From UHGV virus genome UHGV-0362799: DNA of 16,858 nt; one strand, written 5' to 3'. Made by a program: the position numbers and the translations under genes. The stretch's first letter is position 1, and each line of letters opens with the position of its first letter. Source of the stretch: a virus. Below, piece by piece: positions 2,988 through 16,858 of this stretch. Under the pieces are notes generated by a model that made no database searches, was not told the origin of the DNA, and worked only from the letters and a program-made list of their open reading frames with translations.

Positions 2988-3110
2988 AATTCAGCTTTCA
3001 CGCATAACGACTTCGCCCCGGCGACAGGCGGCGCGGACGGTCACCTGGTTTTTAACTCCGCGACCTTCTGACCGTTCGCCCACCGCCTGACTTTTTAACG
3101 GAGGCTCGTC

Positions 3111-3805: not shown

Positions 3806-4089
3806 GTTTTTTTCGCAGTATTTACGACCACATCGCCTTCGCCGCCTCCGTCTCTGCGGTCACGATTGGCGCGATGACCATCAGCGAAAAAATCGCACTG
3901 GCCGGGCTGCTGCTGGGTGCGCTTTCACTCTTTCAGGGCTGGCTTCACCGCCGCCGCATGGAGCGTGCACAGGTACGCCGCAATGCGCTGATTGCACAGA
4001 TTCTGGCGCAGGCCGGAACGCGCGGGCTTCATGAAAGTGAACAACGGGCGCTTGCCGCACTGCAACGGGATAACGATGAAAAACATTAA
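3796..4089 (+). CDS. Holin, class II (two predicted transmembrane segments)
   Basis: Internal ATG at 3796 of the 3646-4089 ORF; 97-aa product MGLGFFRSIYDHIAFAASVSAVTIGAMTISEKIALAGLLLGALSLFQGWLHRRR... has two hydrophobic helices and a charged C-terminus; position X-holin-endolysin as in P2. Confidence 0.7.
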   Translation: MGLGFFRSIYDHIAFAASVSAVTIGAMTISEKIALAGLLLGALSLFQGWLHRRRMERAQVRRNALIAQILAQAGTRGLHESEQRALAALQRDNDEKH

Positions 4090-4618
4090 GCGATATGCCG
4101 CCGCCGTGATTGTGGCGCTGGGTGTCTCGCTGGCTCCCGAAGCACTGCGCACCTCACAGGAGGCACAGATAAAAATTGCCACGTGGGAAGACTGCCGCGC
4201 CACACCCTACACGGACATCGCGGGTATTGCCACCGTGGGCTGCGGCTCCACGGGGAACGTACAGAAACACCTGTACAGCGAACAGGAGGTGGCCCGCCGC
4301 TGGGTGAATGACATGCAGCGGGCGGAGAACTGCATTAACCAGAATTTTCAGGGAGCAGCCATGCCGCAGTCGGCCTTCGAAGCGATGACGGACGCGGCCT
4401 TCAATCTGGGCTGTTCCGGCCTGATGTGGTTTAAGGACCACAACGGAAAGCGCCAGCGCACCACCATCTGGAAACAGGCACAGACGCATAACTGGGCGCT
4501 GATGTGCACCCGCCTCACGGATTTTGTGAATGCGGGCGGGAAGCGCAGTCAGGGACTGGTTAACCGCCGCAGCGATTTTCGCGCCTGGTGTCTGCGGGAT
4601 GTGGAGAAACAGAAATGA
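4076..4618 (+). CDS. Endolysin, GH24 (T4-lysozyme-like) with N-terminal signal/SAR-like hydrophobic segment
   Basis: ATG at 4076 overlaps the holin end; catalytic-triad spacing E-8aa-D-5aa-T visible in ATWEDCRATPYTDIAGIATVGCG; N-terminal Ala/Gly-rich hydrophobic stretch YAAAVIVALGVSLAP. Confidence 0.8.
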   Translation: MKNIKRYAAAVIVALGVSLAPEALRTSQEAQIKIATWEDCRATPYTDIAGIATVGCGSTGNVQKHLYSEQEVARRWVNDMQRAENCINQNFQGAAMPQSAFEAMTDAAFNLGCSGLMWFKDHNGKRQRTTIWKQAQTHNWALMCTRLTDFVNAGGKRSQGLVNRRSDFRAWCLRDVEKQK

Positions 4619-5061
4619 GACTGACCACCGCCGCCGTTGTCGCCCTGTTTTCAGGGGCGCTGTATCTGGTGTCGCTGCGTCTGGCCTGGCAGGCAGGGCA
4701 TGAACGGGCACGTCGTGAATATCACGAACAGGCGCTGGCGGGAACGAATGCCGCCGTGGATGCACTTCATGCAGAACTCCGGGGCATCAGCGGCCTGCTG
4801 GCACAGGTCCGCGCCGCAGAGCAGCACCGGAATCAGGAAGGAGAAAAACGCCGTGAAGAGATACGCAACGCACTCCGGGAAAATCCGTGCGCGGCTGCTG
4901 CTGTGCCTGCCGCTGTTGCTGACCGCCTGCAACAGCGCGCCGCGCCCCGTCGTGGTCACTCAGACGCAGCACGCACCGCTGCAGGAAAGCCTGACACAGC
5001 CAACGCCGATCCCCTCCCTGCCCCGACCGCTGACGTGGGGCGGACTGGCCGTCTGGAGTGA
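4615..5061 (+). CDS. lysB: i-spanin (LysB/Rz-like)
   Basis: ATG at 4615 overlaps the endolysin stop (ATGA); N-terminal TM segment MRLTTAAVVALFSGALYLVSL followed by charged, coiled-coil-like region; contains the embedded +1-frame lipoprotein gene. Confidence 0.7.
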   Translation: MRLTTAAVVALFSGALYLVSLRLAWQAGHERARREYHEQALAGTNAAVDALHAELRGISGLLAQVRAAEQHRNQEGEKRREEIRNALRENPCAAAAVPAAVADRLQQRAAPRRGHSDAARTAAGKPDTANADPLPAPTADVGRTGRLE

Positions 5062-5155: not shown

Positions 5156-5638
5156 ATGCTGAAAATGAACCGTCTGCGCGAAGCCCTCACCGCCTCATCC
5201 CGGTGGTGTCGCGCGAATCCGGAAAAACTCACCGTGTTTGCAGAAAGCGGAAGTATTGAGACCACCGGTGAAACCCCGACGTTTGTCTACCGTTACACGC
5301 TCGTGGCCTTCGTCATGGATTTTCCGGGACACATCGACGAACTGATGCTGCCGCTGATTGTCTGGCTCATGCACAACCAGCCGGATTTGCTGCTCAACCC
5401 GGAAAAAAACAGGGACGTTAAGTTTTCCGTTGCCGTCAATGACGACGACAGCACCGACCTGTTACTGGAAATTCCCGTGCGTGAACGCGTGAAAGTCTGC
5501 CGCAATGAACGGGGTGAACTGTATCCGGTGCACCTGCCGGAACCCCGCCCGCCTGCCGCACTGACGGGCACATGGGGGGATCTGATTGTTGAGGATGTGA
5601 CCTTTAAGGATTTGACCGATGAACACGACATCTCATGA
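5156..5638 (+). CDS. R: Tail completion protein (gpR family)
   Basis: 160-aa ORF with RBS AAGGAGAAG; N-terminus MLKMNRLREALT... resembles gpR; position after the lysis genes as in P2. Confidence 0.75.
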   Translation: MLKMNRLREALTASSRWCRANPEKLTVFAESGSIETTGETPTFVYRYTLVAFVMDFPGHIDELMLPLIVWLMHNQPDLLLNPEKNRDVKFSVAVNDDDSTDLLLEIPVRERVKVCRNERGELYPVHLPEPRPPAALTGTWGDLIVEDVTFKDLTDEHDIS

Positions 5639-6257
5639 ACCGGATGCGGTTTTTCGCGACATTCTGGACGGGCTTTCCGCCGCCGGACGGGCGCGCACGG
5701 CGCGGGCTGTCGGGCAGGCGCTGCGTCAGAGCCAGCAGGCACGTATCCGCGCACAGAAGAACGCAGACGGCTCGCCGTATCCGGCACGAAAACGGCAGGT
5801 GATGCACACCCGCCGTGAAGTGAAGTTTGTGTGGAACGGCGAGGTCCGCACGCTGCGCCAGTGGGGACACAAGCGTTACCGGAGAGGCCGCGCCATCATC
5901 GGGCGCGACCCTGACCGTGGCGGCGCGCTGAGGACGTTTTACCGTGATGATATTGAGCGATACATCGCTGTATCGTCCATGTCTGCCCGTCAGACCAGCA
6001 AAAAAAGCACGCCGATGTTCGCGCGTCTTCGCACATACCGCTGGTTAAAAATGCGCTCAGATGCGGAAGGCGCTGTTGTGGGCTTCGATGGCCTGGCGGC
6101 ACGGATTGCCCGCGTGCATCAGGCAGGGTTACGCGACGAGGTGGCTCCGGGCGTGATGACCACCTACCCGGTGCGTGAACTGCTGGGTATAACCGCAGCC
6201 GACGAACGCCTGGTATATGACACGATTATCCGCTCCCTGAGGAGTGCGGCACGATGA
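5619..6257 (+). CDS. S: Tail completion / virion morphogenesis protein (gpS family)
   Basis: ATG at 5619 with AAGGA RBS 8 nt upstream, overlapping the R 3' end; 212 aa (longer than P2 gpS at about 150 aa); position R-S-V. Confidence 0.7.
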   Translation: MNTTSHEPDAVFRDILDGLSAAGRARTARAVGQALRQSQQARIRAQKNADGSPYPARKRQVMHTRREVKFVWNGEVRTLRQWGHKRYRRGRAIIGRDPDRGGALRTFYRDDIERYIAVSSMSARQTSKKSTPMFARLRTYRWLKMRSDAEGAVVGFDGLAARIARVHQAGLRDEVAPGVMTTYPVRELLGITAADERLVYDTIIRSLRSAAR

Positions 6258-6835
6258 CAGCGGAAATCATGCGACTGCTTGCAAACATCATCCGCACGGG
6301 CGTGATTTTTGCCGTGGACGAAACCACGTGGCGCGTTCGCGTGCGCAGCGGAGAGCTGGAAACCGACTGGCTGCGCTGGAACACACCACGCGCGGGCGCA
6401 TTCAGCGTCTGGCTGCCGCCTGCCGTGGGCGAACAGGTCATGATTGCCTGTATCAATGGCGACCCCGCAACCGCCACCGTCATCGGCAGTCTATGGAGCA
6501 GCGAACATCCTGCGCCCGGCAGCAGCCTGACGGAAATCGTGGTCACAGCGCCTGACGGCGCGGTGTTCCGCTACGATGCGGACGCAGGCGCGCTGAGCGC
6601 CAGCGGAATCAGAACCGCCACCATTCAGGCCGGAACGGGCGTGACGCTGGACACCCCCACCGTCACCTGCACAAATCATCTGAAGACGGCAACGTTTGAG
6701 GTGACAGAAGGCGGAACCCTGAGTGGCAATATCTCGCACAGCGGCGGTGATTTCACCTCCAACGGTGTGACGCTGCACACGCACAAACACAGTGGCGTGA
6801 AGAGCGGCGGCGACACCACAGGAGGCCCGCAGTGA
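6254..6835 (+). CDS. V: Baseplate spike/assembly protein (gpV family)
   Basis: ATG at 6254 overlaps the S stop (ATGA), RBS GAGGAG; 193 aa; C-terminal HTHKH motif consistent with the metal-binding HxH apex of gpV-type spikes. Confidence 0.85.
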   Translation: MTAEIMRLLANIIRTGVIFAVDETTWRVRVRSGELETDWLRWNTPRAGAFSVWLPPAVGEQVMIACINGDPATATVIGSLWSSEHPAPGSSLTEIVVTAPDGAVFRYDADAGALSASGIRTATIQAGTGVTLDTPTVTCTNHLKTATFEVTEGGTLSGNISHSGGDFTSNGVTLHTHKHSGVKSGGDTTGGPQ

Positions 6836-7197
6836 GTGCACGTTTTCTGGGGATGAACCCCGAAGCCCCCGGCGCGCTCAGCGATACGGACCATCTGTGG
6901 AACAGCGTGAGGGATATTCTGCTGACACCGCTCGCCAGCCGGGTGATGCGCCGGGAATACGGCAGCCTGCTGCCGGATTTGCTGGATGCACCGATGAATG
7001 CCACCACCCGCCTTCAGTGCATGAGTGCCGTGGTGATTGCCCTGACGCAGTGGGAGCCGCGCATCGCCCTGAATGCCGTTGATATTCAGTGGGAGGCGGG
7101 CGGAAAAGCCGTTATCACTCTCACCGGCACGCTGACAGAAAGCCTGGAAACCGTACAGAACACACTGACACTCAGGAGCGACAATGCCAGCCGTTGA
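6832..7197 (+). CDS. W: Baseplate wedge protein (gpW / gp25-like)
   Basis: GTG start at 6832 overlapping the V stop (GTGA), RBS AGGAGG 7 nt upstream; product begins (M)SARFLGMNPE..., similar to the P2 gpW N-terminus MTARYLGMN; 121 aa. Confidence 0.85.
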   Translation: MSARFLGMNPEAPGALSDTDHLWNSVRDILLTPLASRVMRREYGSLLPDLLDAPMNATTRLQCMSAVVIALTQWEPRIALNAVDIQWEAGGKAVITLTGTLTESLETVQNTLTLRSDNASR

Positions 7198-8080
7198 CCT
7201 GTCGGAACTGCCGACACCACAGATTATTGAAACGCCGGATTTTGAAGTCATCCTGGCGGAGGTAAAAGAAGACATCATTACGTCATTTCCACAGACACAG
7301 CAGGCTGCCATCCGGTCAGCCATGGCGCTCGAGTCCGAACCGCTCACGGTCATTGCCCAGACTTTTGCGCTGCGTGAGTTGCTGCTTCGCCAGCGAATTA
7401 ATGAAGGGGCAGCGGCCTGTATGCTGAGCCATTCCACGGGTGACGACCTGGATAACCTCGCCGCCAACATGAACACCGCGCGGCTGGTCATCACTCCGGC
7501 CACGGATACCACGGAGGCCGTCATGGAAAGCGACACAGCCCTGCGGCTGCGTGCACAGTCTGCGTTTGATGGCCTCAGCGTGGCCGGCCCCACCGGGGCG
7601 TATGAATATTTTGCCCGCAGTGCCAGCGGTCAGGTGGCGGACGCGCGCGCAACCAGCCCCGCACCGGCGGAAGTCGTGGTGGCGGTGCTGTCCACAGAAG
7701 GCGACGGCACGGCGACCGAAGCACTCCTGACGATGGTCAGAAATGCGCTGAATGCCGAAGACGTTCGCCCGGTCGGTGACCGCCTGACGGTGCAGAGTGC
7801 AGAAATCATCCGGTATCAGATTGATGCCCGGCTTTACTTTTATCCGGGGCCGGAGTCGGAACCCATCCTGAATGCCGCCAGAAACAATCTGGAAACCTGG
7901 CTTGCCGAACAGGGCAAAATCGGTCGCGATGTGGCGCTCTCCGCCATCATGGCCGCGCTGCATGTTCAGGGCGTTCAGCGCGTGGAACTGACCAGCCCCG
8001 CACAGAATATTGTTATCAGTGATGTGCAGTCAGCGTACTGCACATCGTTCACGGTCAGCGCAGGGGGAACCAATGAGTGA
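7184..8080 (+). CDS. J: Baseplate assembly protein (gpJ family)
   Basis: 298-aa ORF, RBS AGGAG; size and position match P2 gpJ (about 302 aa). Confidence 0.9.
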   Translation: MPAVDLSELPTPQIIETPDFEVILAEVKEDIITSFPQTQQAAIRSAMALESEPLTVIAQTFALRELLLRQRINEGAAACMLSHSTGDDLDNLAANMNTARLVITPATDTTEAVMESDTALRLRAQSAFDGLSVAGPTGAYEYFARSASGQVADARATSPAPAEVVVAVLSTEGDGTATEALLTMVRNALNAEDVRPVGDRLTVQSAEIIRYQIDARLYFYPGPESEPILNAARNNLETWLAEQGKIGRDVALSAIMAALHVQGVQRVELTSPAQNIVISDVQSAYCTSFTVSAGGTNE

Positions 8081-8612
8081 ACCGTCACTGCTCCCCCCTT
8101 CAGCCAGCGATTTCATGCGCTGCGTGGAGCGGGGGGCTACCCGGTTGTCAGCACTACCTGTCAGCCTTAATCAGCTCTGGGATCCTGACACCTGCCCGGT
8201 GGCCCTGCTGCCTTATCTGGCGTGGGCGCTGTCCGTGGACAGGTGGGATCGTGACTGGACGGAAGAAACAAAGCGCCAGGTGATCCGTGATGCCTGGGCT
8301 ATCCACCGCCATAAGGGAACCATCAGCGCCATCAGGCGTGTGGTTGAACCCTTTGGCTATGTCATTAACGTGACGGAATGGTGGGAAACCGGCGATCCGC
8401 GAGGGACTTTCCGGCTGGACATCGGTGTACTGGATACCGGTATCTCCGCTGCGACCTATACCGAGCTGGAGCGCCTCATCGATGATGCCCGCCCGGTGAG
8501 TCGCCATCTTACCGGATTAAATATTGTGCAGGACATTTACGGGGATGTGTACGTCGGCGGGGCTGTATTTTGCGGCGACACTATTGAGGTTTATCCGGGA
8601 GAGGTTGTCTGA
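8073..8612 (+). CDS. I: Baseplate/tail protein I (gpI family)
   Basis: Internal ATG at 8073 (MSEPSLLPP...) overlapping the J 3' end by 8 nt; about 179 aa, matching gpI size and position. Confidence 0.85.
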   Translation: MSEPSLLPPSASDFMRCVERGATRLSALPVSLNQLWDPDTCPVALLPYLAWALSVDRWDRDWTEETKRQVIRDAWAIHRHKGTISAIRRVVEPFGYVINVTEWWETGDPRGTFRLDIGVLDTGISAATYTELERLIDDARPVSRHLTGLNIVQDIYGDVYVGGAVFCGDTIEVYPGEVV

Positions 8613-8614
8613 AT

Positions 8615-11461
8615 ATGAAATATGGTGCCATTATCACAGCGGCTGGCGCTGCCAGGCTGGCTGCGGCCACAACAGCAACAGGCCAGAAGCTGAACATCAC
8701 TCACATGGCCGTGGGAGATGGTAATGGAAATCTCCCGGAACCATCGGCCTCACAGGCCGCCCTGATCAATGAAGTCTGGCGCGGGACGCTGAATAAAATT
8801 ACACAGAACAGCAAAGCGCCAAATCAGGTGATTGCGGAACTGGTTATTCCTCCGGAAGTTGGCGGCTTCTGGATGCGGGAGCTGGGGTTGTATGACGACA
8901 GCGGAACCCTGATTGCCGTCGCCAATATGGCAGAAAGCTACAAGCCGTTACTCGCCGAAGGTTCGGGGCGCTCAATGGTCTGCCGCATGTTCATCATCAT
9001 CAGCGATATGAACGCGGTGAATCTGTCAGTGGACAGCAGCGTCATTGCCGCAACACAGGAATATGTTAACGAAGCCATCTCCGGCCTGCACCGCGCCATC
9101 ATTGATGATGTGGTTCTTCAGCATAAAGTTGTCCACGATATTGACTACGCCGGTATTTTTGACGGCGCGGATAAGATGAGTCAGGGGTTCTGTATCTGTG
9201 ATACGCCGCAGGGAACCAGAATGTTTCTGCATCAGCCTGTATCGGGTGGCGTAAGGATTGTTGAAACGACATTTAACCCTGACGGAGAAAACGAAAACCC
9301 GACGGTCATTTCGTTTTCTCCCGTTTTCGCTGATATTGGTCACCAGAGTATCGGGGCTGTATGTGAAGACGGTCGCGTGATGCTGTATACCCCGACCGCT
9401 GACGGCAAGGGTGTGAATATCATCAACTGGAATGGGGCTGACACCAGTCTGACAGATGTCACCCGTACGGAGATTTTCACCTCTGACTTTTTTACCGGGG
9501 ATGAAATTATAACGGTGGCATTGTCGGCAGACGGAAGCCTGTTGATTGTTCAGTCAAGTAATGAAGCCGTCCATCTTCATTACAACAGGGATGACCGCCG
9601 CACAGTTTATGTTTTCGATCGCGCTTCTCTGACGTTTAAACACCGGATTTATCTGTCCACCCAGTCAATGGTGTCGCAGGCATTTCAGGGGATGGCCAGC
9701 GATGGTCATTATCTGTTTGCTTATTACGGTTATACAGGCGTATTTCTGACTCACCGCATTGTTGTATATAACCTGTCAACGGGCGAAGTTGTCAGACAGT
9801 TCAATGTGGATGGCGTTCGTGCCAGGTATGGCCGCCAGAAAATGCTGGGGAATGCAGAGCTGGGGTATCCCGTTTTGCAGGAAGCCGAAGGGCTGGCTCT
9901 CCATAACGGAAAACTGTATCTGCTCGATATGGATTTCTGGTGTCAGACAGCCGATGTGGTTTCTTTTGAGGGGGCATACTTTGCAGCACGTGCAACAAAT
10001 TTTTCTGGCCGTTCCCCGGTGAATCCATCTTACTGGACGCCTACAGCATATGGAACGGCGGCTGCAACGAAATATGATGCCACGAAGTCTTATACGTGTG
10101 GCGTGGCGACAAAACGCAGCAAAGCTGTGGTTTCCGTGGAGGCTTACGACGGCACAGGCTATCTGGTGGACTCCGGCGTGGCGTTTCCTGACAGCCATGC
10201 CAGCCTTTTTCTGAGTCCCAATGCTGTAAATATTGCCCTGTCACCCAATGAAGACTTCCAGGTGGCAGCCTATGAGCAGAATCTGCGCTCGCATCGCCCG
10301 TTATTTGAGGTCAGAAAGGAGGCTCCGGATACAGACACTTCTGCTGCTGTTTTTCGTTTGTTCGGGGATGCGTTCCGAACCGGAGAATACACAGGCCGCT
10401 ACGTTCAGTGGAAACACCGACTGAACGCCGTGCACGATTGTCTGGAAATACGCGCTGACGTGGATTTGTTGAGCGGTGGCGGGATTAACCTTTACTCAAT
10501 GAACGATACTCAGTCGGCGGGACGCACAAGGCTTTATTGCACCGATGGCAGTGAAACCTGGTCTGTATTATTGAGTCCGGTCTCGCCGTCATTTCATCCC
10601 GACCAGGACAAGGCAATGAATCTGGGGTCATCGCCAAATCGCTGGAATGTGGCATACCTGCAGGGCGTGAATATTAAATCGGATGACGAAACCCAGAAGC
10701 GCATGACCATCAGCACCACGCTGAAGGCGGGAGCTTTCCAGGTATCAACAGTCGGGAATCTGGGTATTTATGACGATTCTGCTGACGCTTATGTAATTGC
10801 AGCCCGTAGTGACGGCACTGCATTCATGCAGATGGATACAGATATTAACGGTGCATTCCGGCCATCGGTTAACAATACCAGCGACCTGGGTGCGCCCAAC
10901 AAAGCGTTCCGGAGCGTGTATCTCTGCAACTCGCCGACCGTTGTGTCGGATGCGACGTTAAAGGATACACCGCGCGATGCGACGGCAGCCGAAAACGCGG
11001 CATTTGCAGAAATAGCACGGCTTCCGGGCGTGTGGCGCTGGTTACAGAGAATTGAGGAGGAGGGCGAGGACGCGCGTCTGCACGCCGGGCCGACAGTCCA
11101 GGCCGCGATAGCCGTGATGGAGAAACACGGTCTGGACTGGCGGAAATACAGCGCATTTTGTCTGGATTCGTGGGAAGCGGAGGAGGCACAGTACGAAGAT
11201 ATACCGGAAGAGTATGAAGATATTCCGGTTCAGCCAGCGATTTATTCGGATGAAGGGGAGCTGTTGAGCGGGACAACCCGTGTGCTTACCCGACAGGCGG
11301 AAAGGGTTCTTGTTCGCCCTGCAACCGAAGCAGGAAGCCGTTATCGCTTCCGGAAAGAGGAGCTTCTCTGGTGGTGTCTGCGTGCTGTTGTCAGCCAGGT
11401 GGATGCGCTGACAGAGAGTATCAGCGCACTTACCCGCCGTGTTGATTTACTGGAGGAATAA
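8615..11461 (+). CDS. H: Tail fiber protein (gpH family N-terminus; divergent central region; C-terminal intramolecular-chaperone-like domain)
   Basis: 948 aa. N-terminal about 160 aa carries the conserved gpH block ...MAVGDG...ELVIPPEVGGFWMRELGLYDDSGTLIAVANMAESYKP. The rest diverges from P2 H. The C-terminal about 170 aa begins SDATLKD and ends in a predicted helix, resembling peptidase S74-type self-cleaving chaperone domains. Confidence 0.9.
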   Translation: MKYGAIITAAGAARLAAATTATGQKLNITHMAVGDGNGNLPEPSASQAALINEVWRGTLNKITQNSKAPNQVIAELVIPPEVGGFWMRELGLYDDSGTLIAVANMAESYKPLLAEGSGRSMVCRMFIIISDMNAVNLSVDSSVIAATQEYVNEAISGLHRAIIDDVVLQHKVVHDIDYAGIFDGADKMSQGFCICDTPQGTRMFLHQPVSGGVRIVETTFNPDGENENPTVISFSPVFADIGHQSIGAVCEDGRVMLYTPTADGKGVNIINWNGADTSLTDVTRTEIFTSDFFTGDEIITVALSADGSLLIVQSSNEAVHLHYNRDDRRTVYVFDRASLTFKHRIYLSTQSMVSQAFQGMASDGHYLFAYYGYTGVFLTHRIVVYNLSTGEVVRQFNVDGVRARYGRQKMLGNAELGYPVLQEAEGLALHNGKLYLLDMDFWCQTADVVSFEGAYFAARATNFSGRSPVNPSYWTPTAYGTAAATKYDATKSYTCGVATKRSKAVVSVEAYDGTGYLVDSGVAFPDSHASLFLSPNAVNIALSPNEDFQVAAYEQNLRSHRPLFEVRKEAPDTDTSAAVFRLFGDAFRTGEYTGRYVQWKHRLNAVHDCLEIRADVDLLSGGGINLYSMNDTQSAGRTRLYCTDGSETWSVLLSPVSPSFHPDQDKAMNLGSSPNRWNVAYLQGVNIKSDDETQKRMTISTTLKAGAFQVSTVGNLGIYDDSADAYVIAARSDGTAFMQMDTDINGAFRPSVNNTSDLGAPNKAFRSVYLCNSPTVVSDATLKDTPRDATAAENAAFAEIARLPGVWRWLQRIEEEGEDARLHAGPTVQAAIAVMEKHGLDWRKYSAFCLDSWEAEEAQYEDIPEEYEDIPVQPAIYSDEGELLSGTTRVLTRQAERVLVRPATEAGSRYRFRKEELLWWCLRAVVSQVDALTESISALTRRVDLLEE

Positions 11462-11463
11462 TT

Positions 11464-11748
11464 ATGGACTTAACACCGGTGTTCCATGCACTTTGTGCGG
11501 TGGCCGCTCAGTTTCTGGTTGGTCTTTTTACCGGAAACTGGGCTTACGGAGCGATAGCCGGTTGTACGTTCTTCATTGCGCGTGAACACACCCAGGCAGA
11601 ATATCGCTGGATTGAAATGTTCGGGCATGGCAGGCGTATGAATATGCCGTGGTGGGGCGGTTTTGACCCACGAGCGTGGGATATGGCAAGTCTGATGGAT
11701 TTTGCAGTGCCGGTGGTGGCATGTCTGCTGGTCTGGCTGGTCGTATGA
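11464..11748 (+). CDS. Small hypothetical membrane protein, translationally coupled to the tail fiber gene
   Basis: ATG 3 nt after the H stop with excellent RBS GGAGGA 6 nt upstream; 94 aa with two hydrophobic segments (residues about 6-39 and 77-94) flanking a Trp/Arg-rich loop; followed directly by a terminator. No family recognised. Confidence 0.6.
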   Translation: MDLTPVFHALCAVAAQFLVGLFTGNWAYGAIAGCTFFIAREHTQAEYRWIEMFGHGRRMNMPWWGGFDPRAWDMASLMDFAVPVVACLLVWLVV

Positions 11749-11760
11749 CGTAGCAGGAAA

Positions 11761-11785
11761 CAGGGGGATTTGCCCCTGTTTTTTT
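11761..11785 (+). terminator. Rho-independent terminator ending the fiber operon
   Basis: CAGGGG-GATTTG-CCCCTG hairpin followed by TTTTTTT, 13 nt after the stop of the 94-aa gene. Confidence 0.7.
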
Positions 11786-11786
11786 G

Positions 11787-11930
11787 TTCAGAATGCAGCC
11801 TTCACCATTCGTCTCTAATCGTATTCAGTAATTCGCCCGCAGAAACAAACTAAAATTCATCCCCCGCATCACGCCACTGAAAGCAGACGGTAAACTCCAG
11901 ATTTTCAAACCAGCGTCAGAAGTATTTAAA
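11787..11930 (-). pseudogene. Degenerate remnant of a gpU 3' end (frameshifted fragment)
   Basis: About 70-80% nucleotide identity by eye to 12569-12705, the 3' end of the intact U gene. Reverse translation gives ...SAGELLNTIRD then a 1-nt deletion relative to U (...SAGELLNALKDKMPVAAF*). No start codon and no upstream part of the gene. Confidence 0.55.
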
Positions 11931-12151
11931 TGGCACCAGATGTAATATGCAGGCGATTAATATGGTGTGCTTAAAGATCATAAAAGCGGGCAACATTAAA
12001 ACTCCGGGCTGTGTAAATTACCGCCACTCATAATCAGAGATGAAAACAGAATTAAACTGGCGGAGTGGATTGTATACATAAAATAAGTTCAGTTGTTGAC
12101 TTTCACTTCCGTGAATTGATGAAGGTTATTACAATACATCGGTATGATCTC

Positions 12152-12176
12152 TCCTCCTTAAAAGGGAGGACTTTTT
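12152..12176 (+). terminator. Candidate intrinsic terminator
   Basis: TCCTCCT-TAAAA-GGGAGGA hairpin followed by CTTTTT. Confidence 0.45.
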
Positions 12177-12193
12177 AGAACGCAGAAATTATT

Positions 12194-12256
12194 TATAATC
12201 CCGTAGTGTTCTATACATGCAAACATTCTTTTTCCGCCCCGTGCGGGCTTTTTTTT
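12194..12256 (+). ncRNA. Candidate small transcription unit S1 (-10 TATAATCCC to short GC hairpin plus T8)
   Basis: TATAAT at 12194-12199 with AT-rich upstream region; GC stem 12236-12248 followed by T8 (12249-12256); predicted transcript about 50 nt; no convincing ORF or RBS. Confidence 0.25.
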
Positions 12257-12324
12257 GCCGCAAAGATACAGTAACAAACAAAATTGTAATCATGGCAATC
12301 AAAACACGAGAAACATTTTCAGCA

Positions 12325-12353
12325 ATTGCAATAACAAATTAAAATATTGCAAT
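12325..12353. promoter_or_regulatory. Two perfect ATTGCAAT palindromes spaced 21 bp centre to centre (operator-like); a third, imperfect, ATTGTAAT lies at 12283-12290
   Basis: ATTGCAAT at 12325-12332 and 12346-12353; the second overlaps the -35 of the S2 promoter; ATTGTAAT is centred 42 bp upstream of the first. Confidence 0.35.
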
Positions 12354-12376
12354 TGACAATCCCCGCTTAATATAAT
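12347..12376 (+). promoter_or_regulatory. Candidate sigma70 promoter (TTGCAA-N18-TATAAT)
   Basis: TTGCAA 12347-12352 and TATAAT 12371-12376; an alternative -35 TTGACA at 12353-12358 gives only a 12-bp spacer. Confidence 0.4.
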
Positions 12377-12382
12377 CCCTTC

Positions 12383-12444
12383 CGGAACATAGAACATTAA
12401 ATCTTCACACAATGCATGTTGCCCTCTTTATGAGGGCTTTTTTT
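12383..12444 (+). ncRNA. Candidate small RNA S2 (promoter to terminator, about 60 nt)
   Basis: Predicted start about 7 nt after the -10; ends at the GCCCTC-TTTAT-GAGGGC plus T7 terminator (12421-12444); only a 30-aa ORF without RBS runs through the terminator. Confidence 0.3.
12421..12444 (+). terminator. Rho-independent terminator
   Basis: GCCCTC / GAGGGC stem with 5-nt loop followed by TTTTTTT. Confidence 0.65.
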
Positions 12445-12537
12445 ATTTCCAGAATATCACCATTGCCATCATCGGGCGATTTATATATAGTCAGAATGTA
12501 TTGACAACATTTTGCTTCTTTTCCATGAAGGCCATAA

Positions 12538-12567
12538 GGGAGTGCTTTTTACACTCCCTCTTTTTTT
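12538..12567 (+). terminator. Rho-independent terminator (+ strand) abutting the U stop codon
   Basis: GGGAGTG-CTTTTTA-CACTCCC followed by TCTTTTTTT. In the - orientation the hairpin is followed only by UUAU, so it acts mainly on + strand transcription heading into U antisense. Confidence 0.65.
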
Positions 12568-12569
12568 AT

Positions 12570-13028
12570 TCAGAATGCAGCCACAGGCATTTTGTCTTTA
12601 AGCGCGTTCAGCAGTTCGCCCGCAGAAGCAGACTGAAACCGCTCTCTCATATCCTCATCACACCGCTGAAAGCTGATGGAAAACTCAATCTTTTTTGCCT
12701 TTCCGTAACGATCCAGCTCGGAGCGGGTGGTCTGTAATCCTGTAATCACGTACATTCCGTAAATCTGCCCCGTGCCATCAATCAGCGGCCAGGGACATCC
12801 GGTGTAGGCCTGGGTGTTCAGCAGTGTCAGTGACACCTCACCACCGGTAATTTCCGGGTACAACAGACCGGACAGCGTGATCTGATCGTCACCTGCGCCA
12901 ATATACTGCCAGGCCGCAGAGCGGTTAATGCGCTCATTTTTCACATGTCGCCATGTTTTGCTCTGCTGGATCTGCTGATGCGGAAGCGTTTTCAGCTCAA
13001 ACACAAACATGCCAAAAATCATCATCAT
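12570..13028 (-). CDS. U: Tail protein U (gpU family)
   Basis: 152 aa, starts MMMIFGMFVFELKTLPHQQIQQSKTWRHV...LSGLLYPEITGG, recalled as the gpU family signature; RBS AGGAGA upstream; directly downstream of the tape measure gene. Confidence 0.85.
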   Translation of the reverse strand: MMMIFGMFVFELKTLPHQQIQQSKTWRHVKNERINRSAAWQYIGAGDDQITLSGLLYPEITGGEVSLTLLNTQAYTGCPWPLIDGTGQIYGMYVITGLQTTRSELDRYGKAKKIEFSISFQRCDEDMRERFQSASAGELLNALKDKMPVAAF

Positions 13029-13041
13029 AATTGCGTCTCCT

Positions 13042-16000
13042 TTAGTCCCTGTCGCGGAAGCTGTTCATGCCTGTACGCGCCTGTCTGCGCATCTCTTCGC
13101 GGACGGCCTCACCAACCAGTTTTGCCAGTTCGCGCGGATTCTGTGTGTTGACGTTGTGCAGATGTACATGTATCTCACCGGAAAACGCAGCCGCCTGCGG
13201 CTGTGGCGCAGCTTCCCTTCTGGCCGCATCCGGTCGCAACGGGGGCCGGATAGCCTCCGCGACGGGAGCGGAAGCCATTACCGCCCCCGTCATACCTTCA
13301 GCCACGTTACGCGGCTGCGGCAGTGCGGAGACCTGGCGGGCCACGTTCACAACGGGAGCGGGGGCACTCACCGCAGGGGTGGGCAGTACACCTGTCAGTC
13401 TCTGCCAGAGCATTGTCAGTGCATCCGTCAGCCCTACGCCCGCCGATACCGCCTGCACCGTCCGGACAACCTGCGGTGCTTTCCACTCGCCGTGAATGAT
13501 TTCGGATCCGGGCAGATTTTTGAAAACAATATCGCCGGGACCGACGCGCCTGCGTGTTTCCTCAAGAAGCCCGCCGGTGTTGCTGGCGGTTTTCTGTATC
13601 CCCTGCCGGAACCATGCCTCATCCAGCGGGGATTTGCTGCCGGGTTTGCCGACCGGATTGTCCGCCGTTCCCCTCACCTCTCCGGGAACAGCAGGGGCAG
13701 GTACTGCGGGTTTATTGTCACCGTTGTTTTCCGCTGCATCTGATGACCACGACCATGGTTTCTGCACCATTTTTTTCTGTGCAGGATCCCACTCCCACGC
13801 AACCGGCGCTTTTTGTGTGGCCTGTTTTGCGGCGCTCTCCTGGAGTTTTTGCGTCTCCTTCTGTGCCTCTTTGATGCCGTCCGGGATGACACCCAGCCAC
13901 TTCAGCACGGTACCGAGGCCATCAAGGAGCAGCGTCAGCGGCCCCAGCACAATGTTCTGAATGACCCACCCCAGCGTTTTCCCGAACGACTCCCCTGCAC
14001 TGGTGCATTTGTCGAGCGTCTCTTTTGAGGCGTTCGCAGGTTCAAGCAGGCGGGTGAACCACTCCCACACGGCTTTGATGCCGTCGCCAATCAGCCCGAA
14101 CACCGGAGCCAGCGATGCAAAGGCTTGCCGCAGCGGTTGCAGCGCCTCCCACACTCCGGCAAAAAAGCCGGAAAAAAACGCGCTGATCTGATCCCAGTAT
14201 TTCCACACCAGAACCGCGCCGCCCACCAGGGCGGCAACAATCAGCCCGACCGGACTGAACAGCGCCCCCAGTGCGCCCCCCAGTACCGACACCGCCCCCG
14301 TGACCAGCCCCCACAGCGCAGGCAGCCCCGTCAGGCGCAGTGCCATCGCAGACACAAGCCGGACAGCACCACCAATGCCACCGCCCCCCGTCAGCAGCCC
14401 CAGTCCCAGTTGCAGTTTTGCCAGTGGCCCCGCAATCAGCCCGAGCGTCAGTGACAGCGCACCGAACGTGGAAGACAGCGCCAGAACACTACCGCCGGTC
14501 AGCACCAGCCCCCTGACCAGCGCCTGGTGCTCTCCGACCCATTCGCGCATCCGGGTCATCCACGCGCTCACCGTCTGAACCAGCCCGCGCAAATCCTCCG
14601 TCACTGTACCGAAGATGTCCGTGCGTAGCCCTGAGAACGCACCACTCAGCGCCTGAACATCGCCGGAAAGATTACCGCGCAGTGTCTGCCCCATGCGGTC
14701 TGCCACGCCGCTGACATCACCCAGGTTGTCACGGACATCAGCCAGCGCCCTCAGGAACTGCGGGATCTGGTCAACGGAAAGGTCTTCAACGGGTGTGCCG
14801 AACAGCGCAATGGCCGTGTTCGCCCGCTCTGCCGGGTCACGGATGGCCAGCAGTGCACGGGCGGTCACCTGCATCGCCTGACGAGCAGTGCTGCCTCCCT
14901 GTGCAATGGCAGCAGACACCCGCTCAGCATTCAGGCCGAGAGTCTCATACGCTGAGACACTGGATTTCGACATATCCGAACCCCGGATGCTGAACTCCTT
15001 CACGGCATCGCCGGTTTTGTCCAGCGCAAACTTGCCCTGCTTTGCCATCTCAACCAGCAGACTCATTGTCTCGCTGCCGGTGAAGCCCATGTTGCGGAAG
15101 TGGGTGGAATACTCGTGCAGAATTTCCGGCAGTTCATCGCGCATTTCAGCGGACATACGCTGCATCCCTGCCGTCATCAGGTTAGTAGCCTCGTCACTGC
15201 TGGCAGCCAGCCCGTTCTTCATCATGATGGCAGCGGCCTGAATGCTCTGCGGCACATCAACACCAAAGACGGTCCGCATATCCAGCGCACGACGGCTGAT
15301 GCGCTCCAGTTCCCGGTCGCCGGTGTCGCCCAGTGCGCCGAGCGTACTGCGTACCGCACTCACAGCCTCCGCAGCACCGGCAAAATCAGCGAGACCGTCA
15401 GCCTGTATGTTACGAATAATGTGGGTGTAACGTGCGCCATCCTGTGCGCCTTCCCCCGAACCGGCTGCGATGACCGCACCGTGCTGTTCGGACTCCATCG
15501 CCGGAGCCATCATACGCTGCGCCGCATACAGGCCGCCTGTACCCGCCGCCATCGCCACAGCCCCTGTGTTGCGCAGTTTTTCCGCCTGTGCCTTCGCGGC
15601 CTCATAGCGGCTCTGTGCCTGCGTCACGCGAGCCAGTGCCTGCCGTTCGCGCTCGAGCTGCTCGTTGTACTGCTGTGTACGGCGAACGGCACTTTCAATG
15701 GTGCGGCTGCTGCCGGAAAGCAGAATGCCGTGTTTGCGCATTTCCCCTGCCGCCGCCTGAAGTTTTTCGCGCTCACGCGTGCGCAGCTCGTTCAGGCGCT
15801 CAAGCCGTGCAGACAGCGCCGTCATCATCTCCCGCTGCTTTTCAGAGAGGGTGTTGCCGTTCTGCTCTGCCTTTCGCAGTCCGGCGAGCCTCTGCTCCGC
15901 GCGGGCAATCTGTTCGCGGTATTTACTGAGATTTCCGGCGGCACGTTCGAACACCTTCGACTGCCTGTCGAGCGTCTGTATGTTGTCCTGCGTCTTCTGA

Positions 16001-16137
16001 AGGGATTCAGTGAGAGCGCCCACCTGACGGCGGGCGTTTTCGGTCGGGCGTGTCAGCCGGTCAATTGCGCCAAAGCTGACACGAATATCAAGGGATTTCA
16101 CTGTTGCGGACTCCGCTGCGTTGCGCCGCCCGCTCAC
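13042..16137 (-). CDS. T: Tail tape measure protein (gpT family)
   Basis: 1031-aa ORF, GTG start; coiled-coil-rich N-terminus, Gly/Ala-rich hydrophobic central block and Pro/Ala-rich C-terminus, typical of tape measure proteins; position E/E'-T-U. Confidence 0.9.
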   Translation of the reverse strand: MSGRRNAAESATVKSLDIRVSFGAIDRLTRPTENARRQVGALTESLQKTQDNIQTLDRQSKVFERAAGNLSKYREQIARAEQRLAGLRKAEQNGNTLSEKQREMMTALSARLERLNELRTREREKLQAAAGEMRKHGILLSGSSRTIESAVRRTQQYNEQLERERQALARVTQAQSRYEAAKAQAEKLRNTGAVAMAAGTGGLYAAQRMMAPAMESEQHGAVIAAGSGEGAQDGARYTHIIRNIQADGLADFAGAAEAVSAVRSTLGALGDTGDRELERISRRALDMRTVFGVDVPQSIQAAAIMMKNGLAASSDEATNLMTAGMQRMSAEMRDELPEILHEYSTHFRNMGFTGSETMSLLVEMAKQGKFALDKTGDAVKEFSIRGSDMSKSSVSAYETLGLNAERVSAAIAQGGSTARQAMQVTARALLAIRDPAERANTAIALFGTPVEDLSVDQIPQFLRALADVRDNLGDVSGVADRMGQTLRGNLSGDVQALSGAFSGLRTDIFGTVTEDLRGLVQTVSAWMTRMREWVGEHQALVRGLVLTGGSVLALSSTFGALSLTLGLIAGPLAKLQLGLGLLTGGGGIGGAVRLVSAMALRLTGLPALWGLVTGAVSVLGGALGALFSPVGLIVAALVGGAVLVWKYWDQISAFFSGFFAGVWEALQPLRQAFASLAPVFGLIGDGIKAVWEWFTRLLEPANASKETLDKCTSAGESFGKTLGWVIQNIVLGPLTLLLDGLGTVLKWLGVIPDGIKEAQKETQKLQESAAKQATQKAPVAWEWDPAQKKMVQKPWSWSSDAAENNGDNKPAVPAPAVPGEVRGTADNPVGKPGSKSPLDEAWFRQGIQKTASNTGGLLEETRRRVGPGDIVFKNLPGSEIIHGEWKAPQVVRTVQAVSAGVGLTDALTMLWQRLTGVLPTPAVSAPAPVVNVARQVSALPQPRNVAEGMTGAVMASAPVAEAIRPPLRPDAARREAAPQPQAAAFSGEIHVHLHNVNTQNPRELAKLVGEAVREEMRRQARTGMNSFRDRD

Positions 16138-16635
16138 GCCAGCTCATCACCTCGACGAGAGGCATTGAGAATATCTCGCCGGGCGACCAGTTAAACACGA
16201 CTGCTATATCGGCGACCAGTTCTTCAACGTTGTCGAACTTCGCCAGCGTGATTACGCTTCCATCACCGCCACGGACGGTTTCGCAGACTCCGTGGGAGCC
16301 AAAAAATTCGCCACCAGAGTAGCCAGCGCCACGAAATCACCGGTGGACAGTGACTGAATTTCTGCCAGCTTCAGGCGTGGTGCGGTCACGCGCGAAAGCA
16401 ATGTCATCACCGGGTCTGTTTTGAGGTTCAGCACCTCAATCAGCGACAGCCCGCGCAGTGAGCCTGCCTGGCGGATTTCCTCGCCAATCTCCACATAGTC
16501 AATAACGCGTTCGCCACGCACCACCGGGCAGGATAACTGCACACCCGTTTTTTCCTCTGCGGCTTCTGCGTTATCCACGGTGTTTTCCTCTGCAACGATT
16601 TCGTCTTTCATGATGTCATCTTTCTTTGCTGCCAT
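16088..16635 (-). CDS. Tail assembly chaperone frameshift product E+E' (-1 programmed frameshift)
   Basis: Slippery heptamer T_TTT_TTG on the - strand (+ coords 16300-16306) inside E. The -1 frame continues 70 codons (GSHGVCETVRGGDGSVITLAKFDNVEELVADIAVVFNWSPGEIFSMPLVEVMSWRERAAQRSGVRNSEIP) to a TGA at 16088-16090, overlapping the T start by about 50 nt as in P2 E/E'/T. Confidence 0.6.
16252..16635 (-). CDS. E: Tail assembly chaperone (gpE family)
   Basis: 127-aa ORF upstream of T with RBS AGGAGAAAG; contains the P2-type slippery site; acidic N-terminal extension (true start may be the internal Met 9). Confidence 0.8.
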   Translation of the reverse strand: MAAKKDDIMKDEIVAEENTVDNAEAAEEKTGVQLSCPVVRGERVIDYVEIGEEIRQAGSLRGLSLIEVLNLKTDPVMTLLSRVTAPRLKLAEIQSLSTGDFVALATLVANFLAPTESAKPSVAVMEA

Positions 16636-16650
16636 TTTTCTTTCTCCTGT

Positions 16651-16669
16651 GGCGGCACAATGTGCCGCC
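16651..16669 (-). promoter_or_regulatory. Intercistronic stem-loop between the tail tube gene and E
   Basis: Palindrome GGCGGCAC-AAT-GTGCCGCC (8-bp stem) between the tube gene stop (16682-16684) and the E RBS; no U-tract. Confidence 0.4.
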
Positions 16670-16681
16670 CTGTTAATGCTG

Positions 16682-16858
16682 TCAGTTCAGACCGAGCGCC
16701 GAACTCACGCGATCGCCAAAGACGTTCTGGCCGTCTTTTTTGTAGATGAAGTTCAGCAGGTCGATTTCTGTCACATCGCTGTCATCCACCGACTCCTTGT
16801 AGTAGGTGTTTTTGACGGCGAAGGTGTACTGTGTGGTGTCGCCCTGTTTGGTTTCGCC
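16682..16858 (-). CDS. FII: Tail tube protein (gpFII-like), 3' partial; 5' end lies beyond the window
   Basis: Open frame on the - strand from the window edge to TGA at 16682-16684 (…GETKQGDTTQYTFAVKNTYYKESVDDSDVTEIDLLNFIYKKDGQNVFGDRVSSALGLN*); position immediately upstream of E/E'/T matches the tail tube gene. Not in the ORF track because it has no start codon in the window. Confidence 0.6.
   Translation of the reverse strand, partial: GETKQGDTTQYTFAVKNTYYKESVDDSDVTEIDLLNFIYKKDGQNVFGDRVSSALGLN

What the first reader, a model, noticed from the sequence alone, without database searches (positions are those of the whole stretch)
11464..11748. Uncharacterised 94-aa two-helix membrane protein translationally coupled to the tail fiber
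It occupies the slot where P2 has the fiber assembly gene, but it is a small integral membrane protein (hydrophobic residues 6-39 and 77-94, with a W/R-rich loop MPWWGGFDPRAWDM) with a near-ideal RBS and its own terminator. Small membrane proteins next to fiber genes are often morons, for example superinfection exclusion or receptor-masking factors expressed from the prophage. I do not recognise the family.
Basis: inference. Interest (0 to 1): 0.55.

Follow-up and report, generated by a model that had tools for sequence, protein, structure and literature searches.

The report
Conserved membrane protein riding behind tail-fibre genes
This is a real, strongly conserved 94-residue inner-membrane protein of unknown function that travels at the end of tail-fibre and tailspike gene cassettes in many unrelated phages and sits in about 38% of complete E. 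coli genomes, so it is an ordinary catalogued gene but a worthwhile target for experiments.

Summary
The ORF at 11464-11748 (+) is real. Its RBS, the 2-nt gap after the tailspike stop codon and the terminator are all present. It has 582 homologues, and dN/dS is about 0.1.

It belongs to PHROG 1443 (unknown function). It matches no Pfam, NCBIfam, PADLOC or PDB entry and no informative fold.

AlphaFold gives three helices, not two (pLDDT 92). Charge statistics, plus one homologue carrying a lipoprotein signal peptide, indicate N-out/C-in. That places the near-invariant segment RE(H)TQAEYRWI..G.G.R.NMPWWGGFD..W at the periplasmic face of the inner membrane.

The gene sits directly behind unrelated receptor-binding-protein genes in P2/HP1-like, lambdoid, P22-like, jumbo and Kuttervirus-like phages. 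Syntenic chromosomal copies exist in Aeromonas and Sphingomonadales.

It is not needed by the spike. Phage Pollock has the homologous spike without it, and the HC6-group phages keep only a frameshifted remnant.

In this window it has no promoter of its own and is the last gene of the late baseplate/fibre operon, so it is not a strict moron here.

My best reading is an accessory envelope factor that acts on a conserved host component, most plausibly as an entry or superinfection barrier. That function is inferred, not shown.

The parts
11464..11748 (+). CDS of the 94-aa membrane protein (phrog_1443 family member)
   Evidence: E = 9.4e-56, full length; 582 homologues; dN/dS about 0.1.
11452..11457 (+). 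Shine-Dalgarno GGAGGA, 7 nt upstream of the ATG, inside the last codons of the tailspike gene
   Evidence: Read directly from the sequence.
8615..11461 (+). 948-aa tailspike/fibre gene. The N-terminus is a P2 gpH-type Phage_tail_fib domain; the C-terminus carries a Peptidase_S74 intramolecular chaperone (aa 778-840). Its TAA stop is 2 nt before the ORF94 ATG.
   Evidence: phrog_19921; Pfam; 79.6% nt identity to the phage Pollock tail spike.
11473..11532 (+). Predicted TM helix 1 (aa 4-23), running from periplasm to cytoplasm. Conserved H8 lies at its periplasmic end.
   Evidence: AF2 model; charge statistics; lipoprotein signal peptide fused upstream in homologue P0157.
11539..11580 (+). Predicted TM helix 2 (aa 26-39). 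The helix continues to aa 53 as a juxtamembrane extension.
11581..11682 (+). Near-invariant segment aa 40-73 (REHTQAEYRWIEMFGHGRRMNMPWWGGFDPRAW), inferred to face the periplasm.
   Evidence: Alignments A1 and A2: R40, E41, E46 and W72 are invariant in 47 diverse members, and Q44, A45, R48, I50, R58 and P62 are kept in at least 90%. Topology.
11683..11742 (+). Predicted TM helix 3 (aa 74-93), with conserved D79 and P83. The C-terminus is cytoplasmic; homologues carry K/R-rich tails here.
11761..11785 (+). Intrinsic terminator (CAGGGGG...CCCCUG followed by U7) that ends the V-W-J-I-H-ORF94 late transcription unit
   Evidence: (-18.8 kcal/mol, z = -3.76).

Best explanation
ORF94 is a member of a widespread, uncharacterised family of roughly 95-aa inner-membrane proteins with three transmembrane helices (PHROG 1443). 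Its orientation is N-terminus out and C-terminus in. This presents a small, almost invariant polar and aromatic surface at the periplasmic face of the inner membrane, made of H8, R40-I50, the PWWGGFD loop and D79.

The gene is cargo attached to the 3' end of receptor-binding-protein (RBP) cassettes and is exchanged together with them. In this P2-like prophage it is the last, translationally coupled gene of the late V-W-J-I-spike operon. It takes the slot of gpG, which is not needed here because the spike has its own S74 chaperone domain.

The protein is not part of the virion and is not needed to make the spike.

The most likely mode of action (inferred): it binds or modifies a conserved host envelope component at the outer leaflet of the inner membrane, and so alters the cell's permissiveness to incoming phage. 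That would make it a barrier to entry or superinfection, working like T4 Imm or P22 SieA but unrelated to them in sequence.

Shown here: the gene is real; it is under purifying selection; family membership; predicted fold and topology; linkage to RBP genes; dispensability for the RBP; absence of its own promoter in this window.

Inferred: inner-membrane location, the identity of the target, and any exclusion phenotype.
For: - Real gene under selection.
- Family membership: phrog_1443, E = 9.4e-56.
- Fold: three helices, pLDDT 91.8.
- Topology from 63 species-level homologues, given as K+R / D+E per sequence: N-terminus 0.11/0.71, loop 1 0.95/0.10, C-tail 2.51/0.52. Homologue P0157 carries a lipoprotein signal peptide (MKRLLAAILICSQLVGC) directly before the core.
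- The conserved residues lie in the periplasm-facing segment, while the TM helices vary.
- RBP linkage, always on the same strand at -7 to +42 nt:
  - this window;
  - phage 21 and the Lambda_ev phages;
  - PhiR11_1, UTI89 and BL21 Qin;
  - P22-like Gally and 611R6, in the conversion locus next to int;
  - Halomonas phiHAP-1;
  - HP1-like prophages of Aeromonas and Leclercia;
  - a Citrobacter lambdoid prophage;
  - a Salmonella locus with several tailspike genes;
  - Aeromonas jumbo and P22-like phages;
  - Comamonas;
  - Desulfovibrio, Chelativorans and Leclercia.
- In 79 of 80 E. coli viral contigs the upstream gene falls into four types.
- Dispensable for the RBP: Pollock and the HC6 pseudogene.
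- Cell-autonomous copies: Aeromonas Pirin-X-RIO1 and Sphingomonas ligA-X and pnp-X.
- Not a lysis gene here: the phage has its own holin, endolysin and spanin at 3796-5061.
- Prevalence: 2068 of 5426 complete E. coli genomes.
Against: - There is no experimental or homology link to any exclusion or defence protein: hhalign probability below 1% against P22 SieA and HK97 gp15, no PADLOC hit, and no PHROG family with an exclusion annotation.
- In this window the gene has no recognisable promoter and is coupled to a late gene, so expression in the lysogen is not established.
- Genomes carry a median of 2 and up to 8 copies in different prophages. That argues against broad mutual exclusion among carrier phages.
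- Conservation is very high (about 60% identity from E. coli to Aeromonas and Comamonas, and 45-55% to Alphaproteobacteria). Stable chromosomal synteny is also seen. Neither is typical of arms-race exclusion proteins. Both fit a housekeeping-like envelope role or a small enzyme equally well.
- The topology rests on prediction. The GenBank note for phage 21 gp24 cites TMHMM as giving 2 TMDs, N-in/C-in. That model also puts the conserved loop in the periplasm.
Confidence: 0.4

Rival explanations
1. It is a host-derived envelope 'housekeeping' factor: a very small enzyme or a regulatory subunit acting on a conserved lipid-linked or membrane component at the periplasmic leaflet. Phages would carry it as a fitness or conversion cargo that benefits the lysogen (for example stress, serum or antimicrobial tolerance), as lambda does with lom and bor. 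It would have no direct role against phages.
For: - Syntenic chromosomal copies exist in several Aeromonas species and in Sphingomonadales, next to ligA or pnp.
- Conservation is extreme for H, E, D, R, Y and W residues that cluster at one membrane face.
- Three-TM enzymes of about 120 aa exist: DgkA (established knowledge).
- The gene lies in the lysogenic-conversion locus of P22-like phages, next to an OafA O-acetylase in 611R6.
- It is common in ExPEC genomes such as UTI89 and ST131.
Against: - No similarity to any enzyme or Pfam family.
- This reading does not explain why the gene is fused to RBP cassettes across three tail morphotypes and is kept intact in virulent jumbo phages.
- In this window it is transcribed only with late genes.
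Confidence: 0.25
2. It has a lytic-cycle function tied to release. Made together with the RBP, the late membrane protein would modulate lysis timing (acting like an antiholin or holin partner), or would act on the envelope or receptor glycan pathway so that progeny are not trapped on the dying cell.
For: - It is tightly coupled in translation to late RBP genes (overlaps of -7 to +2 nt in many lineages).
- In Comamonas it overlaps the first of two holin-like genes that precede the endolysin and Rz.
- On a metagenomic contig it follows an endolysin and a 2-TM protein.
- Size, three TMs and N-out/C-in topology are the same as class I holins such as lambda S105 (established knowledge).
- It is intact in virulent Aeromonas jumbo phages.
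Against: - This phage has its own holin, endolysin and spanin 7 kb away.
- The window protein lacks the charged cytoplasmic tail typical of holins.
- In holins the TMs are the conserved part; here it is a 34-aa periplasmic loop.
- The holins of the carrier phages (lambda-, P2- and P22-type) are unrelated to one another, so a common periplasmic partner is unlikely.
- Chromosomal stand-alone copies exist.
- The gene is dispensable or decayed in virulent phages.
Confidence: 0.15
3. It is a fibre/spike maturation or assembly factor: a membrane-anchored replacement for P2 gpG.
For: It occupies the gpG slot and is translationally coupled to the spike. In phiHAP-1 it overlaps the end of a Tfa-like gene.
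Against: - The spike has its own S74 chaperone domain.
- Pollock's homologous spike works without the gene.
- Only a pseudogene remains in the HC6 group.
- The conserved face is predicted to be periplasmic, whereas spikes fold in the cytoplasm.
- The same protein follows unrelated RBPs.
- Chromosomal copies have no phage nearby.
Confidence: 0.05

Closest known systems
P22 SieA, T4 Imm and HK97 gp15 (phage-encoded inner-membrane proteins that block DNA entry)
   Same: All are small phage-encoded integral inner-membrane proteins. SieA is also predicted to have three TMs (PMC10883804). They are accessory, dispensable for virion production, and found in both temperate and virulent phages.
   Different: No sequence or profile similarity. 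[quoted passage not shown] This family is 45-60% identical across proteobacterial classes. They are expressed from their own promoters in lysogens or early in infection; here the gene is coupled to a late gene. No exclusion phenotype is known for this family.
Cor (phi80, N15, T1) and Llp (T5): receptor-blocking lipoproteins encoded next to RBP genes
   Same: A small accessory gene located directly beside the receptor-binding-protein gene and exchanged with it.
   Different: Cor and Llp are lipoproteins that match the receptor of the adjacent RBP. ORF94 has no lipobox and is a polytopic inner-membrane protein. It stays the same while the neighbouring RBP changes.
P2 gpG / lambda Tfa tail-fibre assembly chaperones
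   Same: Same genomic slot, immediately after the fibre gene in the late operon.
   Different: Those are soluble cytoplasmic chaperones (Caudo_TAP). ORF94 is a membrane protein with no similarity to them, and the spike here is self-chaperoned by an S74 domain.
Class I holins (lambda S105, P2 Y)
   Same: About 95-105 aa, three TM helices, N-out/C-in.
   Different: ORF94 lies outside the lysis cassette, and the phage has its own holin (phrog_1350). The window protein has no charged C-terminal tail. Conservation is concentrated in a long periplasmic loop. Chromosomal orthologues exist.
PHROG 1443 / 'FIG00639861 hypothetical protein' / phage 21 gp24 'putative membrane protein'
   Same: This is the family the ORF belongs to (full-length match, E = 9.4e-56; 91.5% identity to phage 21 gp24).
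   Different: Nothing differs. The family simply has no assigned function.

Membership tests
PHROG 1443 (unknown function) | Full-length match to the family profile | tested here: met
   E = 9.4e-56, residues 1-94 on profile positions 1-94 of 97.
Moron (independent transcription unit inserted in a phage operon; Hendrix/Juhala definition) | Own promoter upstream of the gene | tested here: not met
   No sigma-70-like site in 8000-11800 (0 found, 3.2 expected). The ATG is 2 nt after the spike stop codon. P22-like relatives do have a terminator plus an AT-rich spacer upstream.
Moron | Own terminator downstream | tested here: met
   Hairpin plus U7 at 11761-11785.
Moron | Base composition different from the flanking phage genes | tested here: not met
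   GC is 0.53 over the ORF against 0.54-0.58 in the spike 3' end. The AT-rich DNA starts only after the terminator.
Moron | Present or absent between otherwise related phages (accessory) | tested here: met
   Absent after the homologous spike in Pollock. Decayed in the HC6 group. Found next to four different upstream gene types in E. coli.
Moron | Expressed from the repressed prophage | not testable with these tools
   Needs RNA-seq or a reporter in the lysogen.
Inner-membrane superinfection-exclusion proteins (SieA, Imm, gp15) | Homology to a characterised member | tested here: not met
   hhalign probability 0.1-0.2% against P22 SieA and HK97 gp15. No exclusion-annotated PHROG. No PADLOC model. 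T4 Imm was not compared directly.
Inner-membrane superinfection-exclusion proteins | Integral inner-membrane protein | tested here: inconclusive
   Predicted only: three hydrophobic helices and a positive-inside pattern. No fractionation data.
Inner-membrane superinfection-exclusion proteins | Blocks DNA entry or plating of superinfecting phage | not testable with these tools
   Needs plating and K+ efflux or DNA-entry assays.
Cor/Llp-type receptor-masking lipoproteins | Lipoprotein signal peptide with lipobox | tested here: not met
   The N-terminus MDLTPVFHALC has no basic n-region, and H-A-L-C does not fit [LVI][ASTVI][GAS]C. Only one distant homologue, P0157, has a lipobox.
Cor/Llp-type receptor-masking lipoproteins | Specificity co-varies with the adjacent RBP | tested here: not met
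   Copies that are 75-91% identical lie next to a P2-type S74 spike, lambda-type Stf plus phrog_1361, two S74 fibre pieces and P22-type spikes.
Tail-fibre assembly chaperone (gpG/Tfa) | Caudo_TAP/Tfa homology; soluble protein | tested here: not met
   No Pfam or NCBIfam hit. Three predicted TM helices.
Tail-fibre assembly chaperone (gpG/Tfa) | Required for the adjacent fibre or spike | tested here: not met
   The Pollock spike (79.6% nt identity over 1.7 kb, including the S74 region) has no such partner. The spike carries Peptidase_S74.
Class I holin | Three TMs, N-out/C-in, about 100 aa | tested here: met
   (prediction).
Class I holin | Located in the lysis cassette with a charged cytoplasmic C-terminal tail; it is the phage's holin | tested here: not met
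   A separate holin (phrog_1350), endolysin and Rz lie at 3796-5061. The window protein ends in ...LLVWLVV with no tail.
Prolipoprotein diacylglyceryl transferase (Lgt), a name given by one UniRef entry in the Aeromonas cluster | Match to Pfam LGT | tested here: not met
   None of 47 diverse members matches LGT at E <= 10. The name looks like an annotation artefact.

The most novel reading that the evidence does not exclude
The family may be an unrecognised, ancient proteobacterial inner-membrane factor: either a very small enzyme or a ligand- or protein-binding module at the periplasmic leaflet. Tailed phages of all three morphotypes would have captured it repeatedly and kept it physically fused to their receptor-binding cassettes. 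It would define a new, receptor-independent way for a phage to reprogram the envelope (block entry, protect against lysis from without, or control a lipid-linked precursor) by acting on one highly conserved host target.
Probability: 0.25. Interest if true: 0.75.

Novelty: new variant of a known kind. Interest (0 to 1): 0.5.

Why it matters
The gene is present in about 38% of complete E. coli genomes, often in several prophages at once, and in phages of Alpha-, Beta- and Gammaproteobacteria and Desulfovibrio. It still has no name, domain or phenotype.

Three features set it apart from ordinary phage 'hypothetical proteins'. It is constantly attached to the most frequently exchanged phage module, the receptor-binding cassette. 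Its periplasm-facing segment is almost invariant. Syntenic chromosomal copies exist.

Together these point to a single conserved host target that could be found by experiment. If it is an entry barrier, it would affect host-range prediction and phage-therapy design, because RBP swaps would carry it along. If it is a small envelope enzyme or regulator, it is a new piece of Gram-negative envelope biology.

Tried and rejected
- **Family libraries.** Pfam, NCBIfam and PADLOC scans of the protein gave nothing. The only Pfam hit was a weak PhoR N-terminal hairpin match (E = 0.17 for the window protein; 6 of 47 members, best E = 0.0035), judged to be generic TM-hairpin similarity.
- **Solved structures.** A profile search of PDB sequences gave nothing.
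- **Exhaustive profile search for domain fusions.** All 431 clusters are 50-146 aa, so there are no fusion partners to give a functional clue.
- **hhalign against SieA and gp15.** No relation.
- **O-antigen or LPS-specific conversion.** Rejected as the general function. The protein does not change with the neighbouring spike or fibre type, and it is chromosomal in Sphingomonadales, which lack LPS (plus established knowledge).
- **Obligate link to S74 chaperone domains.** Rejected. About half of the contexts lack S74: phage 21 Stf (Laminin_G_3 domain), P22-type spikes, phiHAP-1 Tfa.
- **Heme-handling 'WWD' motif resemblance (PWWGGFD versus CcmC/CcmF).** This is a recollection only. No Pfam Cytochrom_C_asm hit supports it, so I did not pursue it.
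- **The 'Lgt' name in UniRef.** Not supported.
- **Literature.** Searches for the family, phage 21 gp24 or RBP-adjacent membrane proteins found no characterisation.
- **Rfam on the downstream AT-rich gap.** Nothing above threshold.

Full report
**1. The observation**

GGAGGA lies at 11452-11457, 7 nt before the ATG. The 948-aa upstream ORF (8615-11461) ends with TAA 2 nt before the ATG. A hairpin followed by seven U residues lies at about 11761-11785, with a fold energy of -18.8 kcal/mol and z = -3.8 against shuffles. The hydrophobic stretches and the W/R-rich loop are as described.

The ORF is a genuine gene:
- 582 homologues at E <= 1e-3 in the 90% clustered database;
- 431 clusters in the exhaustive 50% library;
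- dN/dS of 0.10-0.13 against the lambdoid copies.

**2. Surroundings**

The window is a P2-like prophage of E. coli. On the + strand it carries, in order:
- scaffold, major capsid protein, small terminase subunit and head-tail adaptor;
- gpX;
- a lysis cassette: holin 3796-4089, endolysin 4076-4618, Rz spanin 4588-5061;
- tail completion proteins;
- baseplate V-W-J-I;
- the spike.

The spike has a P2 gpH-type N-terminus (Phage_tail_fib) and a C-terminal Peptidase_S74 intramolecular chaperone. This explains why no gpG-type assembly gene is present.

No sigma-70-like promoter was found anywhere in 8000-11800, against 3.2 expected. GC over ORF94 (0.53) matches the spike. ORF94 is therefore the last, translationally coupled cistron of the late baseplate/fibre operon.

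**3. Family**

The protein is a full-length member of PHROG 1443, function unknown (E = 9.4e-56). The following searches found nothing:
- Pfam, NCBIfam and PADLOC;
- PDB sequences;

No member is fused to another domain; all are 50-146 aa. Every source name is 'hypothetical protein', with two exceptions. GenBank calls phage 21 gp24 a 'putative membrane protein'. One UniRef entry in the Aeromonas cluster says 'Prolipoprotein diacylglyceryl transferase', which no Pfam LGT match supports.

**4. Structure and topology**

AlphaFold2 with a 26-sequence alignment gives pLDDT 91.8 and three helices: 4-23, 26-53 and 74-93. The protein is thus a three-helix protein, not a two-helix one.

Charge counts in 63 species-level homologues, as K+R / D+E per sequence:

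| Segment | K+R | D+E |
|---|---|---|
| N-terminus | 0.11 | 0.71 |
| Loop 1 | 0.95 | 0.10 |
| Central segment | 4.41 | 4.02 |
| C-terminal tail | 2.51 | 0.52 |

By the positive-inside rule this gives N-out, loop 1 in, central segment out, C-in. One homologue (P0157) has a lipoprotein signal peptide, MKRLLAAILICSQLVGC, placed directly before the core. That also puts the N-terminus in the periplasm.

Conservation is concentrated in the periplasm-facing parts. In 47 diverse members, R40, E41, E46, W72 and P83 are invariant, and H8, Q44, A45, R48, I50, R58, P62 and D79 are kept in at least 90%. The TM helices vary.

**5. Genomic context elsewhere**

The gene sits on the same strand immediately behind an RBP-module gene, at -7 to +42 nt, in very different phages:

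| Phage or prophage | Arrangement |
|---|---|
| Phage 21 and Lambda_ev phages | Stf, then a 92-aa phrog_1361 protein, then the ORF |
| PhiR11_1, UTI89 and the BL21 Qin prophage | S74 fibre piece, the ORF, then a tfa remnant |
| P22-like Gally | Spike, terminator, 190-nt AT-rich spacer, the ORF, att, int |
| P22-like 611R6 | OafA, a fibre 3' fragment, the ORF, int |
| Halomonas phiHAP-1 | Tfa, the ORF, sheath |
| HP1-like prophages of Aeromonas and Leclercia | After the fibre/spike gene |
| Citrobacter lambdoid prophage | After a pectate-lyase-type spike |
| 160-kb Salmonella contig | Between two Tail_spike_N spike genes |
| Aeromonas jumbo phages | Between a 1125-aa hypothetical protein (intein-type Hint and LAGLIDADG domains) and a putative tail-fibre gene, so upstream of the RBP-type gene |
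| Aeromonas P22-like phage 4_4512 | After a 698-aa protein with no Pfam match and before gp10 |
| Comamonas | gpJ, a 72-aa protein, the ORF, two holin-like genes, a 183-aa putative endolysin (inferred from sequence; its only profile match is phrog_3108, unknown function), Rz |
| Desulfovibrio, Chelativorans and a further Leclercia locus | After an S74 spike, a Laminin_G_3 fibre-like protein and a Tail_spike_N spike |

In 80 E. coli viral contigs the upstream gene was a phrog_1361-type 92-aa protein (40 contigs), a 234-aa S74 piece (27), a 346-aa S74 fibre (11) or the P2-type spike (1). A related P2-like prophage carries the fibre, 92-aa gene and ORF version at the same position. The cassette is therefore swapped as a unit between lambdoid and P2-like phages.

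The gene occurs in 2068 of 5426 complete E. coli genomes, with a median of 2 and a maximum of 8 copies.

**6. Dispensability and cell-autonomous copies**

The virulent N4-like phage Pollock has the homologous spike, at 79.6% nt identity over 1.7 kb including the S74 region. In Pollock the spike gene is followed directly by a terminator, with no ORF.

The HC6 group (47.7-kb phages) keeps only a frameshifted remnant behind an S74 spike.

Conversely, the gene is a syntenic chromosomal gene in several Aeromonas species, between Pirin and RIO1. In Sphingomonadales it lies directly after ligA or pnp. The latter organisms lack LPS (established knowledge), which argues against an O-antigen- or LPS-specific role for the family.

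**7. Interpretation**

These facts exclude a virion or assembly role. They make receptor-specific masking of the Cor/Llp type unlikely.

They fit an accessory envelope protein whose conserved periplasmic face engages a conserved host component. Such a protein would be carried as cargo on RBP cassettes. The most economical functional guess is a barrier to entry or superinfection that works like Imm or SieA. SieA is a three-TM inner-membrane protein that blocks the ejection conduit (PMC10883804). There is no homology to SieA or HK97 gp15.

Several points weigh against this guess:
- expression in this window is coupled to late genes;
- cells carry up to 8 copies in different prophages;
- the degree of conservation is not typical of arms-race proteins.

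I therefore give it only about 0.4. The rivals are a host-type envelope enzyme or regulator acting as fitness cargo (0.25), a lysis or release modulator (0.15), and a fibre assembly factor (0.05).

**8. Novelty and verdict**

The gene itself is an already catalogued hypothetical protein, so nothing about its presence is surprising. What is not in the databases or in the papers searched is the following set of features:
- the pattern of near-universal linkage to RBP cassettes;
- the periplasm-facing invariant motif;
- the chromosomal orthologues;
- any function.

I rate it a new variant of a known kind, namely a phage accessory inner-membrane protein. Interest is moderate (0.5), because it is very common, sharply defined and directly testable.

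Noticed in passing
window 11774-12582: A roughly 780-nt AT-rich stretch (35-37% GC) lies between the ORF94 terminator and the stop of gpU (minus strand, 12570). It is bracketed by a direct repeat of the terminator plus the gpU 3' end (11774-11855 versus 12556-12638, 79-93% identity), which suggests an insertion or duplication. It has no ORF of 50 aa or more. It is unannotated in nearly all of the 72 E. coli genomes that share it; a more divergent copy in strain SCU-172 carries one annotated 54-aa hypothetical protein. No Rfam family reaches threshold. It contains four further terminator-like hairpins on the + strand (12152, 12233, 12421, 12537). Two promoter-like sites (12347-12376 and 12463-12491) are each followed by a terminator, which could define two sRNAs of about 55-70 nt. 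Small hydrophobic ORFs are also present, for example 12189-12302 (-), 37 aa, MIAMITILFVTVSLRQKKARTGRKK..., which resembles a type I toxin.
   Followed up: partly
window 12570-16858 (minus strand) versus 5619-11748 (plus strand): The tail genes are not in P2 order. Here gpU (12570-13028) and the tape measure (13042-16137) lie on the minus strand; in near-identical prophages gpE, the tube and the sheath follow on the same strand. This cluster is convergent with the V-W-J-I-spike-ORF94 operon. ORF94 and the AT-rich gap sit at the convergence point.
   Followed up: no
L003 (E. coli strain 2-1, NZ_CP097198), locus 506-4662: In the closest genome match (99.2% identity) the spike gene is interrupted by an IS3-family element. 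ORF94 (WP_001546052.1) remains intact downstream.
   Followed up: no
L011 3710-3988 (phage 21 gp23); L177 1234-1512: A second uncharacterised small gene, phrog_1361, encodes a 92-aa acidic, non-membrane protein. It usually sits between the lambdoid Stf or P2-like fibre and the ORF94 homologue and travels in the same cassette.
   Followed up: partly
L015 3965-4160 (phage HC6 and 5 related records): An unannotated, frameshifted remnant of the family (...RRRANIPWWGGFDWRAWDLPSLLD) lies directly after an S74-type tailspike in 47.7-kb phages, at the junction with a convergent SSB/recombinase module. This indicates that the spike cassette was acquired from a temperate source.
   Followed up: partly
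L008-L010 (Logan metagenome contigs); proteins P0147, P0191, P0256: A subfamily has an acidic insertion of about 45 aa (..KPFQTPADYAEWHYKTYGEAEGRE..) inside the conserved periplasmic segment. It is encoded after an endolysin and a 2-TM holin-like gene, and before a secreted trypsin-like protease.
   Followed up: no
L011 4386-7835 (phage 21) and L001: Phage 21 and the Lambda_ev phages carry the sitABCD iron/manganese transporter operon immediately downstream of the ORF94 homologue, on the opposite strand. This marks the position as a cargo hot spot.
   Followed up: no
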